The position numbers were made by a program, and so were the translations under genes. DNA of 63,983 nucleotides, the filler included, from Collodictyon triciliatum (Eukaryota), in the NCBI GenBank assembly GCA_043381765.1. It is 5 parts of 5 records of this genome, joined end to end, with 100 filler letters (N's around TTAATTAATTAA, not from the genome) between each part and the next. Parts side by side here need not be neighbours in the genome. Positions count along the whole stretch, not along the records: positions 14,324 to 28,512 come from JBHJMP010001861.1; 4 more parts are not named here. The stretch is one strand, 5' to 3'. The notes under the pieces are model-generated. The model was not told where the DNA came from, made no database searches, and was given only the letters and a program-made list of their open reading frames with translations. Positions 14,324 through 22,294 of this stretch are shown piece by piece (the stretch's first letter is position 1; every line of letters begins with the position of its first letter).

Positions 14324-14424
14324 CCTAGCTTAACACTCGTCTGGCCTGCCTCCAGCCCTACTTTCTGCCCTGCCCTACCCGCTAGTTACCCTGGCCCTCA
14401 ACATTCATGCCATATTGAGTGCCC

Positions 14425-15156
14425 CTAAATAACAATCCCACTACCTGTATTGGGAATTACACTTCTTAAACCATCATAATAAGTTTCCATATTAGTGGAT
14501 GTATTACTTGTAGTAAGCGTACAGATGTATGTTGTGTTAGTAGAAATTGGATTTAACCAAAATTGTGTCCCATTTGATAAAGCTGGTAATGTATATGTTA
14601 CATTAGCAAATGAATAATTAATGCGTTGAAAAGTCGGATCGTTTTGAATCGCTGTTATACTAGAAGCAAATGAATTAAAGGTTAAACAAAGTTCATTATT
14701 TAATGGTAATGGAATCGATAAATTACCACCAGCAGAATCCCATGTCTGTCTTGCAACATTTCCAGTGATTATTCCCATTAAATTGGTCGATGAAAGACCA
14801 TAAAGGCCCGTATTACTGGCACCAATTCTTAGACCTGATGAACTACCAGACCCTGTTCGAATAATATCGATGGTTGGGTTGTCAGTAAATGTATATGTAC
14901 CGGCACCTGTTGAATTTAGAATTTGATTAGAGCCTGTTGGACCAGGTACTTGGTTCACTGCAGCCCACGATGGTACAGACCCGTTTGTCGTCAAGAAGTG
15001 GCCCTGATTTCCCGATTGACTAGGCAGCTCAGCCGGTGTTGTCGTCTCCTGCAGCCACTGTAAATAAACCCCACTCGGATCGACTTTTAATACTTTGTTT
15101 GCGTCTTGATTGAAATATTCCGGTAGTTCCTTTTCTTCTGTAATGAAAAAACCCAT
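14425..15156 (-). CDS. Viral fibre/tail-fibre-like protein (possibly C-terminally truncated)
   Basis: G/S/T/N-rich; phage fibre-like motif LPSQSGNQGHFLTTNGSVPSW; VTYTLPA..NG beta-strand motif; directly downstream of the penton gene. Confidence 0.6.
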   Translation of the reverse strand: MGFFITEEKELPEYFNQDANKVLKVDPSGVYLQWLQETTTPAELPSQSGNQGHFLTTNGSVPSWAAVNQVPGPTGSNQILNSTGAGTYTFTDNPTIDIIRTGSGSSSGLRIGASNTGLYGLSSTNLMGIITGNVARQTWDSAGGNLSIPLPLNNELCLTFNSFASSITAIQNDPTFQRINYSFANVTYTLPALSNGTQFWLNPISTNTTYICTLTTSNTSTNMETYYDGLRSVIPNTGSGIVI

Positions 15157-15170
15157 ATTCTAGGCAAGAT

Positions 15171-15938
15171 TTAAAAATCTGGAATAATCCGCAGCGTGAA
15201 GCTGTAGTCCTGAATTTGATTAATTGTGTTTCCCAGTCTGTCGACCAACCGGAAATTCCAGCTGAACGGAATATACGAGCAGTCCATCAGATTCTCTAGG
15301 ATATTGTCATTTACCTCGTAGTAACTCGAGTACCGTGAACCAACACTAAGCGGTATTTTTGCGATGATGCCGTTGCCGCCTATGTTGCTGGCAAAACTTG
15401 ACGACTGAATATTGGGGCTGACTAAATACACGTAATCAAACGGACGGACATTGACCATATTCTGCAGCTCAACAAACGACGTATTGAACGAGAGATTGGC
15501 CGTTAGTCCTATGAGGTCCCGGCACGTCGACGAATTCACAAACAGTTGATATGAAATACTTGCACCTTCTCCTCTGATTGCAATTTTTTGTTTACCAGCA
15601 AGAAATGAAACTGAAACAACTGCATTAGCTGACTGGGATGCTGTGACTGCATTCATCTTTGTTCTAATGTCACTGACTATTTCATTGATGGTTTGTAATC
15701 CAGTCTCAAGTGAAATATTGTATGAAACGGGGCTGCCTGCTCCGACTTGGCAAAGAAAAGCTAATTCATTGTTGGCGGATGTGACATTGTGCACGGCATA
15801 AGGTATTTGAATACTTTCAAGTGCGACCCTGGCACTGCTTGCCACGTATCTGTTTTGAGTTGTTGCAAAATTAAAGTCTGATATACTGCCGCTTTCTCTG
15901 TTGGCTGAATCGACGTGAATGTAATAGGCTTTCTCCAT
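15171..15938 (-). CDS. Minor capsid protein (penton, single jelly roll) of a Polinton-like virus
   Basis: N-terminal IHVDSANR...DF, VALESIQIP..HNV..NN; C-terminal IIAKIPL...FRLVD..G......YSFTLRI; 255 aa; this is the typical PLV penton pattern. Confidence 0.8.
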   Translation of the reverse strand: MEKAYYIHVDSANRESGSISDFNFATTQNRYVASSARVALESIQIPYAVHNVTSANNELAFLCQVGAGSPVSYNISLETGLQTINEIVSDIRTKMNAVTASQSANAVVSVSFLAGKQKIAIRGEGASISYQLFVNSSTCRDLIGLTANLSFNTSFVELQNMVNVRPFDYVYLVSPNIQSSSFASNIGGNGIIAKIPLSVGSRYSSYYEVNDNILENLMDCSYIPFSWNFRLVDRLGNTINQIQDYSFTLRIIPDF

Positions 15939-15972
15939 ATTCTACCCCAGAAATTATTTTCTATGGATAATT

Positions 15973-16320
15973 ATGAGTGATTCTGAAAACGAAATGGATA
16001 CCATTGAGAAAAAACCTAAATCCAAACGCATCGCATCTGAAAAACAAAGGGCCCACCTTGCGAAAATTCAGCCAAAAGCAACAGAAGCTAAAAAAAAGAA
16101 CAAAGAGATTACTCAGACCATAAAAACTTACCAAAAAGCCACAGCTCCATCAAACGAGCTAGGAGAACTAAAATCTGAAATGGCCAAAGTCGTAAAGTAC
16201 CTGACACAGCAAGAAGCCTATAAGATGCAAAAGAGAATCCAGAAAAAAGCGCAAGCAGAAGCAGTAGATAAAGAAACAACACGAGCTTATGCATTTGACG
16301 CAAACAATTTATTTCGATAA
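15973..16320 (+). CDS. Small basic viral protein (possible DNA-binding/core protein)
   Basis: 115 aa, K/R-rich, SEKQRAHLAK motif, directly upstream of the packaging ATPase. Confidence 0.65.
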   Translation: MSDSENEMDTIEKKPKSKRIASEKQRAHLAKIQPKATEAKKKNKEITQTIKTYQKATAPSNELGELKSEMAKVVKYLTQQEAYKMQKRIQKKAQAEAVDKETTRAYAFDANNLFR

Positions 16321-20313: not shown

Positions 20314-20391
20314 TACCGGGGTTTTTAAATATATATGTACTTTTGTTTTTAAGCTGCGTTTTTTTTAAAAAAAAAAATTGTAGGTAAAAAT

Positions 20392-20916
20392 ATGCCGGAA
20401 ATTCCAGAAAATATTAAAAAGCAATTACCACAAGATTTTGATGAAGTTTGGGAGGTTGTTGAAATTGAAGACATAGAAAAGGGTGATTACATCTCGTATT
20501 TCCCCAAGCCCCGCAAATATAAATCGCGTGACTCTGAATCCAAACCGCAGTTAGTTAAAGGCGGGTACGTATCATTTCTGCCAGACGAGGAGAAAAAAGC
20601 CATTCGAGGCACAAAGGAAAATATAATTGGGTTGCGCAGTTTTAAATCAAGCTGGTCTATCGCAGAGTCGGATGTTTATTTTTTCTGCAGGTCCAAGAAA
20701 AACTTTAGAGATATTTTAAAAAAAGGAGTAGAAAAAGCCAGTGAGACAAAAACTGAAACACGCAAGCGCAAGGCTGAGATTTTAAAGGACGAAATCAAAC
20801 AGGCTGAAAAAATTAGTGCAAATAAAGAGGTTGCCGAGGCTGTGAAAGCAGTTGAATACCCAAGTGAAGAATCTCCAATAAAAAAAAAAAGAGGCAGACC
20901 AAAGAAGACAACTTAA
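20392..20916 (+). CDS. Viral protein with C-terminal AT-hook/NLS (KKKRGRPKK)
   Basis: 174-aa ORF; RGRP AT-hook core; its stop overlaps the integrase stop (shared TTAA 20913-20916). Confidence 0.7.
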   Translation: MPEIPENIKKQLPQDFDEVWEVVEIEDIEKGDYISYFPKPRKYKSRDSESKPQLVKGGYVSFLPDEEKKAIRGTKENIIGLRSFKSSWSIAESDVYFFCRSKKNFRDILKKGVEKASETKTETRKRKAEILKDEIKQAEKISANKEVAEAVKAVEYPSEESPIKKKRGRPKKTT

Positions 20917-22103
20917 AACTTCTTCCTCTTGGCCGCACGTTCTTCACGAGACTGATTCTGTGCAGCTTTGTTTTGCTCATTAAAATTGAATAAATCTTTC
21001 TCCTCTAAACCAGAGGCCCCTTTCATTTTGCGAGGCTTAGCTTCTTTTATAAATTGATTCAAGTCATCTTCCTCTTCAAATTCTTTGACGAGTTGTTTTT
21101 TGGGTTTATGCGTTTTGCCTTTGGTGATTGTGTCGTCGATCAAAAGCAAGTCAGAGCGCTTGAAATTAGTTTTGGCGATTTTTAGATTTGTTGATTCGAC
21201 TTTGACATAGGGCACAGCCCACTCGCTGGTTGGTTTGCTTTCTTTGATGACTGTGTATATTTCATTACTCCAACGGGGCAAGTACCCCTTTGAAGTTTTT
21301 AGTTTTTGTTTTACATTCACAGGCAAGTCAGTCTTCTCGAGAATTATTCTGACTTTGTCTCCAGGTTGAAATGGTTTGTCATCGCCAGCATTCTGATTCT
21401 TTTTGCTTGCATATTTATTTTGGTTTTTAATTATTTGCTCCTGGTACTTTGGAAGAACCGCAACATCAGGCACAACCTTTGTTGTTTTATTTTTAACAAT
21501 ATTAATAGAGTCTGTGAATTCTTTGAGATGGGGGATTGGGTCTTTGCCAGTCTTTTGCAGATATGAAAACAAGGCCCGTTTAATTGTGCCATTGGCTCGC
21601 TCTACAAAGGCGTTGGTTGTGGGATTACCTGGAGAACTTTTCACACTCTTAATATTATTGCTTTCTAAAAGTTTTGGAACTTCACCTTCAAATTCTTTTC
21701 CATTGTCTGATTGAATGGTCGTGATTAGTTTATATTCTTTTATTAACTTTTTTAATTGCTCGGACACTTCTTTGCTGGAATTTGCCAGCAGTGGAAAGGC
21801 CCACAGCTTTCGCGTGAATACATCGACACAAGTCAGAATATATTTTGCGTGATTTGATTCCAGGTTGCTTACATCAATTGTGTCTATCTGAACATAACCT
21901 GGTTTGAATCGCATTATGGTTGCTTGTTTGCGTTCTGTCTTTCTCGCTTGAAGAGTTTGATAGTCTGGTTGCTGTTTAAGAAAGTCTTCGACAGTCTTTC
22001 TTTTAATTCCAAACTCTTTAACCGACGCCCAGAGACCAGCGATTGAATTAGTGTGCTTGGGTGCATTATAATACTTTTCCAATATTTTTAATTCTTCCTC
22101 CAT
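20913..22103 (-). CDS. Retroviral-like (rve, DDE) integrase, Polinton/Maverick type
   Basis: YYN.P N-terminus, QIDTID, CVDVFTRK, IQSDNGKEF, VERANGTIK; C-terminal FQPGDKVRI and GYLPRWSNEIYTV. Confidence 0.93.
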   Translation of the reverse strand: MEEELKILEKYYNAPKHTNSIAGLWASVKEFGIKRKTVEDFLKQQPDYQTLQARKTERKQATIMRFKPGYVQIDTIDVSNLESNHAKYILTCVDVFTRKLWAFPLLANSSKEVSEQLKKLIKEYKLITTIQSDNGKEFEGEVPKLLESNNIKSVKSSPGNPTTNAFVERANGTIKRALFSYLQKTGKDPIPHLKEFTDSINIVKNKTTKVVPDVAVLPKYQEQIIKNQNKYASKKNQNAGDDKPFQPGDKVRIILEKTDLPVNVKQKLKTSKGYLPRWSNEIYTVIKESKPTSEWAVPYVKVESTNLKIAKTNFKRSDLLLIDDTITKGKTHKPKKQLVKEFEEEDDLNQFIKEAKPRKMKGASGLEEKDLFNFNEQNKAAQNQSREERAAKRKKF

Positions 22104-22155
22104 AAAATAATTAAGATTTTATAATTCCACATTAAAACCAAGATGGCATCTCTGC

Positions 22156-22294
22156 CCAAATGCGGAATTTATAATAATTAAAATTACAAATGTGGATGGA
22201 ATATTCTAGAATATTATATTACCAAATGCGGAATTTAAAATAATTAATTTTCCAAATGTGGAATTTATAATAATTAAAATCCAAATATGGTTAT
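22156..22294. repeat. ~30-bp tandem repeats (CCAAATGYGGAATTTAWAATAATTAAWWT) at the viral right end; probable terminal repeat region
   Basis: Units at 22156, 22186 (partial), 22222, 22252 and 22281, running into the gap. Confidence 0.7.

What the first reader, a model, noticed from the sequence alone, without database searches (positions are those of the whole stretch)
14324..22294. Endogenous Polinton-like virus with AEP primase-SF3 helicase and rve integrase, no PolB visible
Seen: eight intronless, densely packed ORFs; the penton, ATPase, primase-helicase and integrase frames are uninterrupted and the enzyme motifs intact (A32 ATPase Walker A/B, AEP DxD/GxH, SF3 helicase motifs, integrase D-D-E). 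Known: penton + A32 ATPase mark Preplasmiviricota; classical Polintons pair rve with protein-primed PolB, whereas primase-helicase replication modules occur in PLVs/MELD-type viruses. Inference: this is a young, possibly reactivatable integrated virus of a flagellate and may represent an undescribed lineage. The major capsid gene probably lies beyond the left break.
Basis: partly seen in the sequence, partly recalled or inferred. Interest (0 to 1): 0.9.

Follow-up and report, generated by a model that had tools for sequence, protein, structure and literature searches.

The report
Half a Polinton-like virus genome
This is about half the genome of a small capsid-forming DNA virus of the Polinton-like group, sitting at the end of a scaffold of a eukaryote's assembly; its kind is already known, its close relatives are common in freshwater samples, and whether it is truly inserted in the host chromosome is not shown.

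Summary
Positions 14324-22294 are one 7,971-bp contig, 91% coding. It has eight intact intronless ORFs of 100 aa or more, plus a ninth conserved 57-aa ORF. I confirmed four genes:
- a single-jelly-roll penton
- an A32/FtsK packaging ATPase
- a superfamily-3 helicase with a probable AEP prim-pol N-terminal domain
- an rve integrase with D74, D133 and E168

The 243-aa ORF is a vertex-fibre-like protein. No PolB is present here or in the longest relatives.

The "left break" is a scaffold end. The window is a chain of separate scaffolds joined by six-frame-stop linkers.

Thirteen metagenome contigs share the gene order. The longer ones continue past the fibre gene into a large ORF, a 114-119-aa ORF and a 519-533-aa double-jelly-roll capsid protein. 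So the MCP half is missing from this scaffold, and the full genome is roughly 17 kb.

Pieces 99-100% identical occur in freshwater, sediment and subsurface metagenomes.

Integration rests only on a scaffold link across 243 N to host-like DNA. No junction, TIR or TSD is visible.

PLVs with primase-helicase replicases and rve integrases are already in print.

Verdict: a new member of a known kind. PLV identity about 0.95; integrated state about 0.6-0.65. "Flagellate" and "reactivatable" are unsupported.

The parts
14324..14423 (.). 100 nt at the scaffold end. GC is 0.57. A + strand frame is open from the first base to a stop at 14423-14425. It could be the 3' end of the neighbouring large gene or non-viral DNA; this is unresolved.
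   Evidence: GC. There is no similarity to the relatives' large-gene C-termini or to other loci. The 3' ends of the large gene in L004 and L005 are also GC 0.50-0.52.
14425..15156 (-). 243-aa vertex-fibre-like protein. It has a conserved N-terminal 65-125 aa and a variable distal part.
   Evidence: Residues 1-75 are 77% identical to the start of the 804-aa L005 protein. Residues 1-125 are 52% identical to the 737-aa L012 protein. It shows 28% identity over residues 75-232 to the 359-aa L013 protein. It sits directly downstream of the penton gene in all relatives. The function is inferred.
15171..15938 (-). 255-aa single-jelly-roll penton (minor capsid) protein.
   Evidence: Profile hits to PBCV-1 P1v1 and P1 and to a chain named 'Penton protein'. 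AF2 pLDDT 90.4. Foldseek: mavirus penton E 4e-10, Sputnik 3j26_N, adenovirus penton base. BFVD top TM 0.75. 842 representative homologues at E<=1e-3.
15973..16320 (+). 115-aa lysine-rich conserved protein of unknown function.
   Evidence: 45-89% identical ORFs lie in the same position in L002, L004, L005, L009, L010 and L012. dN/dS against L005 is 0.065/0.631. No Pfam hit passes a cut-off.
16327..17049 (+). 240-aa A32/FtsK-HerA-type genome-packaging ATPase.
   Evidence: Pfam Pox_A32 E 5.7e-9, above the cut-off. PHROG terminase large subunit 2.7e-15. Walker A and B motifs read. 98% identical to L005, with dN/dS 0.019/0.563.
17075..17248 (+).
   Evidence: tblastn finds 56-77% identity over its full length in L004, L005, L009, L010 and L011. 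No Pfam hit.
17245..17471 (.). Iteron-like array. The 9-mer AATGGTGTG/CACACCATT occurs 8 times in both orientations and forms inverted repeats. It lies just upstream of the replicase gene and is a putative replication origin.
   Evidence: Repeats. The 9-mer count is 8 in this intergenic region and 0 in the same region of six relatives. L012 and L002 carry other repeated 9-mers there. The origin function is inferred.
17550..19919 (+). 789-aa replicase: a probable AEP prim-pol N-terminal domain fused to a D5-like superfamily-3 helicase.
   Evidence: DUF5906 E 8.6e-13 and Prim-Pol E 0.061. PHROG DNA primase 3.3e-17. The profile matches PDB 'Primase' 6k9c/6k9e at E 1.6e-21 over the helicase part only. 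D88, D90 and H125 are invariant. Atlas features place residues 1-200 with Prim-Pol clusters.
20008..20313 (-). 101-aa ORF of unknown function. It is not found in the fetched relatives.
   Evidence: Listed. No blastp match among the ORFs of relatives. The only Pfam hit is below the cut-off.
20392..20916 (+). 174-aa conserved protein next to the integrase. It has a basic C-terminus (KKKRGRPKK) and may bind DNA.
   Evidence: 32-57% identical ORFs lie beside the integrase or replicase in L004, L005, L010 and L012. No Pfam hit. DNA binding is my inference from the basic tail.
20913..22103 (-). 396-aa rve (retroviral-type, DDE) integrase.
   Evidence: Pfam rve E 2.1e-11, above the cut-off. D74, D133 and E168. 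33 homologues, the best 99% identical.
22156..22292 (.). Three direct repeats of 26-41 nt plus a 16-nt perfect palindrome at 22200-22215. They lie upstream of the integrase and run up to the gap. This may be a subterminal repeat region of the viral genome.
   Evidence: Family D4. The pattern matches 3 times here and 0 times in 100 shuffles. Palindrome. L004 starts with the shared 12-mer. Metagenome contigs show rearranged repeat units here (joints at 22215-22253).
22295..22537 (.). Scaffold gap of 243 N. It hides any virus-host junction.
22538..28512 (.). Host-like eukaryotic DNA on the same scaffold. It carries microsatellites and a split MORN-repeat gene at 24807-25384.
   Evidence: Pfam MORN E 3.1e-9 and 1.4e-4 in separate frames. 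A compound microsatellite at 23224-23494 is shared with 4684-4900 on another scaffold. Only broken frames are present.

Best explanation
The contig is roughly the right-hand half of the genome of a Polinton-like virus (PLV) of about 17 kb.

**What is shown**
- It encodes a capsid vertex protein (penton).
- It encodes an A32-type ATPase of the family that packages DNA into preformed capsids.
- It encodes a helicase-containing replicase.
- It encodes a DDE integrase.

**What is inferred**
- The 243-aa protein is a vertex fibre, anchored by its conserved N-terminus and varying distally for host recognition.
- The AEP-S3H protein starts replication at the iteron array just upstream of its gene.
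- The rve integrase inserts the linear genome into host nuclear DNA.
- The copy in this assembly is such an insertion. Its integrase-side end and host junction would be hidden in the 243-N gap.
- Its capsid-side half would have been assembled elsewhere, because short-read assembly broke at the variable fibre/large-gene region.
For: **Virus identity**
- Penton.
- ATPase, helicase and integrase all pass Pfam cut-offs.
- Gene order is shared with 13 metagenome loci.
- The 533-aa protein of relative L012 resembles DJR capsid clusters (TM 0.65-0.71; one DJR-like_dom row meets the naming bar). It is 52-57% identical to the L013 and L004 proteins.
- No PolB family was found in the window's 8 proteins or in the 9 ORFs scanned from relatives.
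- Strong purifying selection against L005: dN/dS is 0.019/0.563 for the ATPase, 0.065/0.631 for o115 and 0.091/0.426 for the penton.

**Genome size**
Relatives sit on contigs of 16,409, 16,905 and 17,215 nt.

**Integration**
- The contig is scaffolded through a sized gap of 243 N. Other gaps in the window are 942, 365 and 10 N, so gap sizes look estimated from read pairs.
- The DNA beyond the gap carries MORN exons split by introns and a microsatellite shared with another scaffold.
- The integrase gene and a repeat region lie at the end facing the gap. That is where integrases sit in described PLVs (PMC4642659 passage).
Against: - No sequence crosses the gap, and no TIR or TSD is visible.
- The left end shows no recognisable host DNA.
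- Only about half a genome is on the scaffold. No capsid gene is anywhere in the window: tblastn of the relatives' MCP, large protein and 114-aa protein found nothing.
- The fetched relatives are stand-alone viral contigs without host flanks.
- Pieces with 0 mismatches over 201-419 nt occur in environmental runs of other studies. The virus therefore also exists outside this assembly.
- The AEP assignment rests on weak or indirect evidence.
- The origin and fibre roles are inferences.
Confidence: 0.55

Rival explanations
1. The contig comes from a free, episomal or co-cultured virus, or from another organism in the sample. A few spurious read pairs scaffolded it wrongly to host DNA. It is a real PLV but not an insertion in this genome.
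For: - Near-identical pieces occur in freshwater, sediment and subsurface metagenome runs. 20 of 23 listed runs hold part of it, from 10 studies, with a best share of 0.56. Some laid contigs have 0 mismatches.
- Relatives occur as stand-alone contigs of up to about 17 kb.
- The join is only a run of N.
- The contig ends on both sides in places where assemblies of mixed virus populations would also break: the repeat array and the variable fibre region.
Against: - A free virus at high copy usually assembles as one full-length contig, not as a half genome tied to host DNA. This is inference.
- The gap has a specific estimated size, which implies several concordant read pairs (inference).
- The virus carries an intact integrase, so insertion is expected of it.
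Confidence: 0.3
2. It is an inserted but truncated, dead remnant. The capsid-side half was lost, and the GC-rich 100 nt at 14324-14423 is host DNA abutting the break.
For: - There is a sharp GC step exactly at the stop of the 243-aa ORF, from 0.57 to 0.30-0.36.
- The fibre-like ORF is 243 aa, against 737-807 aa in the closest relatives.
- The 33-codon open frame at the scaffold end does not resemble the conserved C-termini of the relatives' large protein.
Against: - A short 359-aa fibre version exists in L013 and aligns to nearly the end of the 243-aa protein.
- The 3' ends of the large gene in L004 and L005 are also GC 0.50-0.52.
- All other ORFs are full length compared with relatives.
- 100 nt is too little to call.
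Confidence: 0.12

Closest known systems
Polinton-like viruses with AEP-S3H (primase-helicase) replicases, e.g. the integrated Guillardia theta elements and cryptophyte PLVs
   Same: - A minimal morphogenetic module of MCP (seen here only in relatives), penton/mCP and A32 ATPase.
- No maturation protease found.
- No pPolB.
- An AEP-like domain fused to an S3H helicase. The same architecture is described in PMC4642659, PMC11161782 and PMC12220804 (passages read).
- Diverse fibre proteins are noted in PMC12220804.
   Different: - Those G. theta elements use tyrosine recombinases (passage); this one has an rve integrase.
- The nearest named structural penton match, TvV-S1, is only 12% identical.
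PLVs with rve-INT (cryptophyte clusters C2-C4; endogenous PLVs of protists in the 2023 PNAS survey)
   Same: An rve-type integrase within a PLV. PMC10120064 lists pPolB or Pri-Hel together with YR or rve for endogenous elements. In PMC12220804, rve-INT is the main integrase in some clusters, with TIRs and 5-6 bp TSDs.
   Different: - TIRs and TSDs cannot be seen here.
- I could not learn from the passages read which replicase accompanies rve-INT in those clusters.
Polintons/Mavericks and mavirus-type virophages
   Same: - rve integrase, A32 ATPase and a jelly-roll penton.
- The mavirus penton is the best PDB fold match.
   Different: - No pPolB and no Ulp1-type protease were detected.
- The replicase is a primase-helicase type.
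- A defining feature (pPolB) was tested and not met, so this is not a Polinton.
Tetraselmis viridis virus S1 (a cultured PLV)
   Same: The penton fold matches with TM 0.74.
   Different: - Only 12% sequence identity.
- TvV-S1 is cited in PMC11161782 as infecting marine algae (passage), while this lineage's holders are freshwater, sediment and subsurface samples.

Membership tests
Polinton-like viruses (PLV) | [quoted passage not shown] | tested here: inconclusive
   It is absent from the window (tblastn), but the scaffold ends before the place where synteny puts it. The 533-aa protein of relative L012 matches DJR capsid clusters, and homologues are present in L004 and L013.
Polinton-like viruses (PLV) | Single-jelly-roll minor capsid (penton) protein | tested here: met
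Polinton-like viruses (PLV) | FtsK/HerA-A32 packaging ATPase | tested here: met
   Pox_A32 at 36.3 bits against a cut-off of 22.8. Walker A and B motifs.
Polinton-like viruses (PLV) | No capsid maturation protease (typical of PLVs per PMC4642659) | tested here: met
   No protease family passes a cut-off among the window's 8 proteins or the 9 ORFs scanned from L012, L013 and L005. One hit, Peptidase_C15 on the L012 integrase, is below its cut-off. Unannotated ORFs remain.
Polintons / Mavericks | [quoted passage not shown] | tested here: not met
   No PolB family. The replicase is DUF5906/S3H with a Prim-Pol-like N-terminus.
Polintons / Mavericks | rve integrase | tested here: met
Polintons / Mavericks | Terminal inverted repeats and a 5-6 bp target-site duplication | not testable with these tools
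   One end lies beyond the scaffold and the other lies in the 243-N gap. The fetched relatives show no terminal repeats, so they are probably incomplete at their ends.
Virophages (Maveriviricetes) | Ulp1-type protease and dependence on a giant virus | tested here: inconclusive
   No protease was found. Dependence on a giant virus cannot be tested from sequence.
Endogenous viral element | Continuous sequence from virus into host DNA | not testable with these tools
   There is only a scaffold join through N. No genome is held. The single read-laying run used public metagenome contigs, none of which bridges the gap.
AEP-S3H primase-helicase | AEP catalytic motifs (DxD, sxH) in the N-terminal domain | tested here: inconclusive
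   D88, D90 and H125 are invariant in 10 of 10 sequences. Pfam Prim-Pol E 0.061 is below its cut-off. Atlas features give 30 of 30 Prim-Pol-bearing clusters, with 13-19% member share. There is no PDB match for this domain.
AEP-S3H primase-helicase | Superfamily-3 (D5-like) helicase domain | tested here: met
   DUF5906 E 8.6e-13. PDB 6k9c/6k9e E 1.6e-21.

The most novel reading that the evidence does not exclude
The scaffold catches a currently circulating freshwater PLV inside the nuclear DNA of its natural host. That would give a host to an uncultured lineage that is widespread and locally very abundant. Its replication-integration cassette (iteron origin, AEP-S3H, rve integrase) would be swapped as a unit between capsid backgrounds. 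Three observations point that way:
- The morphogenetic genes are 88-98% identical to L005 while the replicase is only 40% identical.
- The replicase N-terminal domain is replaced outright in L002, L004, L009 and L010.
- The iterons differ by lineage.
Probability: 0.35. Interest if true: 0.55.

Novelty: new member of a known kind. Interest (0 to 1): 0.35.

Why it matters
Hosts of most Polinton-like viruses are unknown. If the junction is real, this scaffold ties a widespread freshwater PLV lineage to a sequenced eukaryote. It would also offer a natural example of an rve-integrase, primase-helicase PLV with an intact vertex, packaging and replication module.

If the junction is not real, the contig is a contaminant that should be flagged in the assembly.

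Either way the architecture itself is already described, so the value lies in host assignment and in the evidence of module exchange, not in a new kind of element.

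Tried and rejected
- **Own-genome search.** No genome is held, so sister copies and the MCP-bearing scaffold could not be sought.
- **IMG/VR scans.** Scans with the replicase, the penton and the penton profile found no relative. The ATPase profile found only loci at 24-29% identity.
- **First AF2 run.** With 10 sequences it gave pLDDT 50.6 and was discarded.
- **Single-sequence PDB searches.** The L012 MCP candidate and the replicase each found nothing.
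- **Pfam on relatives' ORFs.** Nothing useful for the MCP candidate or the large protein.
- **Complex prediction.** Two penton copies with the fibre N-terminal 70 residues gave no verdict (score 0.00). It is no evidence either way.
- **Sequencing runs.** No RNA holder is listed.
- **Read laying.**
  - No contig lay on 22612-23200, and X1 had none on 14324-17283. Parts without cover are not evidence.
  - The joint 17547 to 22156 in 3 of 4 runs has short sides (28-53 nt) and unknown content between them. I read it as divergent cassettes between conserved intergenic stretches, but did not resolve it.
- **Bacterial promoter/terminator scan.** It gave 33 promoter-like sites against 26.8 expected, and is irrelevant for a eukaryotic virus.
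- **Terminal repeats in L004, L005, L012, L013, L009 and L010.** None found.
- **Left 100 nt.** No similarity to the window or to any locus.
- **Earlier findings of this scan.** Three look-ups returned nothing.
- **Host identity.** The eL6 gene matches eukaryotic eL6 chains in the PDB, but the table names no organisms. I did not pursue the source.

Full report
**What the window is**

The window holds four identical linkers: 44 N, TTAATTAATTAA, 44 N. They sit at 14224, 28513, 42785 and 57031. The pieces between them shrink steadily: 14,223, 14,189, 14,172 and 14,146 bp, then a cut piece. The 12-mer gives stops in all six frames. I infer that the window is a chain of separate scaffolds of one assembly, sorted by length.

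The finding's scaffold is 14324-28512. It consists of:
- a 7,971-bp contig (14324-22294)
- 243 N
- a 1,664-bp contig
- 10 N
- a 4,301-bp contig

So the "left break" is a scaffold end. The DNA to its left has nothing to do with the element. No whole genome is held for this window.

**The observation**

Eight ATG-started ORFs of 101-789 aa fill 14425-22103 on both strands under the standard code. They cover 90.6% of that span. The DNA to the right of the gap has only short broken frames. A ninth ORF of 57 aa (17075-17248) is 56-77% identical over its full length in five relatives.

- **Pfam.** The ATPase falls in Pox_A32, the 789-aa protein in DUF5906 and the integrase in rve, all above curated cut-offs. 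The other five proteins have no hit above a cut-off. PHROGs agrees: terminase-like ATPase, DNA primase, transposase.
- **Motifs.** The Walker A and B motifs and the D74/D133/E168 triad are readable.
- **Penton sequence evidence.**
  - A word-indexed search gave 9 homologues, 7 of them 79-95% identical.
  - A profile of those found 842 representatives at E<=1e-3.
  - I aligned 82 sequences: the window protein, 5 further close homologues, and 76 of the 150 listed representatives. I chose near-full-length single-stretch proteins of 225-350 aa and dropped fragments and long multi-domain proteins.
  - That profile hits PBCV-1 P1v1 (6.4e-20), PBCV-1 P1 (3.3e-9) and a chain named 'Penton protein' (1.9e-7). 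The other 3 of 6 rows are noise at E 0.3-1.
- **Penton structure evidence.**
  - AF2 on the 82-row alignment gave pLDDT 90.4, against 50.6 with 10 rows.
  - Foldseek ranks the mavirus penton first (E 4e-10), then Sputnik, adenovirus penton bases and PBCV-1. Two FliD rows at TM 0.15-0.16 are spurious.
  - In BFVD the best matches have TM 0.74-0.75 and include Tetraselmis viridis virus S1.

**The replicase**

- **Helicase half.** It is secure: DUF5906, plus a profile match to PDB 'Primase' chains 6k9c/6k9e at 1.6e-21 over profile positions 454-652.
- **N-terminal domain.** It is probably an AEP prim-pol.
  - D88, D90 and H125 are invariant in 10 of 10 homologues.
  - Pfam Prim-Pol reaches only E 0.061.
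  - All 30 named Atlas feature hits for residues 1-200 are clusters in which 13-19% of members carry Prim-Pol.
  - No solved structure matched this domain.
- **Domain replacement in relatives.** Four relatives (L002, L004, L009, L010) have a different N-terminal domain in front of a homologous helicase.

**Relatives and the missing half**

One metagenome scan with the penton profile returned 13 loci out of 136 pattern matches.
- Nucleotide identity to the window is 80-88%. In the closest loci it covers only about 15007-17185, from the 5' end of the fibre gene through the penton, o115 and ATPase genes.
- Gene order is shared: integrase, o174, replicase, (57-aa ORF), ATPase, o115, penton, fibre.
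- The longer loci continue with a 1,188-1,368-aa low-complexity protein on the opposite strand, a 114-119-aa protein and a 519-533-aa protein.
- The ESM Atlas holds that last protein. Its feature and structure neighbours are viral capsid clusters of Preplasmiviricota and Nucleocytoviricota, with Capsid_N, Sputnik_MCP and DJR-like_dom families. TM is 0.65-0.71 over 388-432 residues, and one DJR-like_dom row meets the naming bar.
- The L004 and L013 versions are 52-57% identical to it.

None of these capsid-side genes is anywhere in the window. Contigs carrying relatives top out at 16,409, 16,905 and 17,215 nt, so the genome is about 17 kb and the window holds roughly half. No PolB or protease family was found in the window or in the 9 ORFs scanned from relatives.

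**The 243-aa ORF**

- Its first 65-125 residues are conserved with the 737-807-aa proteins that follow the penton gene in relatives. The rest is variable. A 359-aa version exists in L013.
- This is the pattern of a vertex fibre, with a conserved anchor and a variable distal part. Fibre proteins are reported for PLVs (PMC12220804 passage).
- The role is inferred.

**Non-coding features**

- **Iteron array.** Between the ATPase and replicase genes, the 9-mer AATGGTGTG occurs 8 times in both orientations and forms inverted repeats of up to 33 nt. The same region in six relatives lacks this 9-mer. L012 and L002 carry other repeated 9-mers there. I read this as a lineage-specific iteron origin next to its initiator gene. 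That is an inference.
- **Repeats near the gap.** Upstream of the integrase, three direct repeats (3 matches against 0 in 100 shuffles) and a 16-nt perfect palindrome run up to the gap.
  - L004 begins within the homologous stretch.
  - Metagenome contigs show rearranged repeat units there.
  - A 2026 preprint reports palindromes in the termini of endogenous elements that use non-pPolB replicases and particular RVE integrases (passage).

**Is it alive as a virus, and where?**

- **Selection.** Divergence from L005 is dominated by synonymous change. dN/dS is 0.019/0.563 for the ATPase, 0.065/0.631 for o115 and 0.091/0.426 for the penton. All ORFs other than the fibre match the lengths of their relatives.
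- **Public runs.** 20 of 23 listed runs hold part of the contig. Three hold half or more of its words, and the best share is 0.56. They come from 10 studies and are labelled sediment, freshwater or subsurface metagenomes. Three organism-labelled runs hold small shares that I did not lay.
- **Laid contigs.** I laid four runs from four studies. They contain contigs with 0 mismatches over 201-419 nt, and longer pieces at about 98.5% identity (1,386 nt with 20 differences; 1,632 nt with 21).
- **Best protein matches.** The best integrase homologue is 99% identical and the best replicase homologue 89%. Both are listed on a 4,655-nt contig.

So the same or nearly the same virus is present in the environment. 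The lineage is mosaic. Against L005 the ATPase is 98% identical, but the replicase is 40% and the integrase 34%, the latter over a partial 108-aa match.

**Integrated or not**

For integration:
- a sized scaffold gap
- a right flank with intron-split MORN exons and a compound microsatellite also found on another scaffold
- the integrase and repeat array facing the gap

Against integration:
- nothing crosses the gap
- no TIR or TSD is visible
- the relatives are stand-alone contigs
- only half a genome is present

GC does not discriminate (0.357 for the element, 0.342 for the flank).

The GC-rich 100 nt at the left end could be host DNA at a truncation point. It could equally be a divergent 3' end of the large gene, since the L004 and L005 ends are also GC 0.50-0.52.

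I put the options at about 0.55 for a full insertion broken by assembly, 0.12 for a truncated insertion and 0.30 for not integrated.

**Comparison with what is known**

All papers below were read as passages found by term search.
- In 2015, PLVs were defined by MCP, mCP and ATPase, without a protease and mostly without an RVE integrase. Some carried AEP-S3H (PMC4642659).
- The 2024 review-type analysis lists AEP-S3H among the common replicases (PMC11161782).
- The 2023 survey of protist genomes describes insertions of 15-30 kb with pPolB or Pri-Hel, and YR or rve (PMC10120064).
- The 2025 cryptophyte study finds rve-INT as the main integrase in several clusters, and AEP-S3H frequently (PMC12220804).

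This element fails the Polinton test (no pPolB) and meets the testable PLV features. It is therefore a new member of a known kind.

I cannot say whether this lineage or this very element is already catalogued. My two full-text searches addressed architecture, not sequence, and the supplements were closed.

**Host**

The other scaffolds carry ordinary eukaryotic genes:
- eL6
- a RING and an NHL-repeat ORF
- LRR ORFs

"Flagellate" could not be tested.

Noticed in passing
window 14224-14323, 28513-28612, 42785-42884, 57031-57130: Identical linkers (N44-TTAATTAATTAA-N44) separate pieces of steadily decreasing length. The window is a chain of separate scaffolds, so neighbours across a linker are not genomic neighbours.
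   Followed up: yes
L002, L004, L009, L010 versus the window and L005, L012 (replicase N-termini): The replicase helicase domain is homologous throughout. The N-terminal 400 or so residues are an unrelated domain in four relatives, a domain swap within one gene in otherwise syntenic genomes.
   Followed up: partly
window 15157-15167 and 15939-15949 (minus strand, just upstream of the start codons): The fibre and penton genes are both preceded by (C/G)(C/G)TAGAAT directly before ATG. A related TCTAGAAT lies in the palindrome at 22200-22215. This may be a late-promoter-like motif. It was not tested for significance.
   Followed up: no
window 17547 / 22156: In 3 of 4 laid metagenome runs a contig joins 17547 to 22156, skipping the replicase-to-integrase block. 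The sides are only 28-53 nt and the content between them is unknown. This may reflect alternative cassettes between conserved intergenic stretches.
   Followed up: partly
window 4684-4900 and 23224-23494: The same compound microsatellite (ATT/GTT units) occurs on two different scaffolds at 82-94% identity.
   Followed up: no
window 38124-40534 (minus strand): A RING-finger ORF (40043-40534) lies upstream of an ORF with NHL repeats (38124-39521). This looks like a TRIM-NHL-like gene.
   Followed up: no
window 41211-41897 (minus strand): A 228-aa frame made of tandem EEARRAEEARKAE-type repeats. The DNA repeats itself at 74-87% identity.
   Followed up: no
window 58646-62016 (minus strand): A run of ORFs with leucine-rich repeats, apparently exons of a receptor-like gene.
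   Followed up: no
L004:9362-13468, L005:8425-12453, L012:10670-14236, L013:2240-3643: Relatives encode a 467-1,368-aa low-complexity protein between the fibre and MCP genes. It has no Pfam family and only its C-terminus is conserved (...NLSQAIY in 3 of 4). Its function is unknown.
   Followed up: partly
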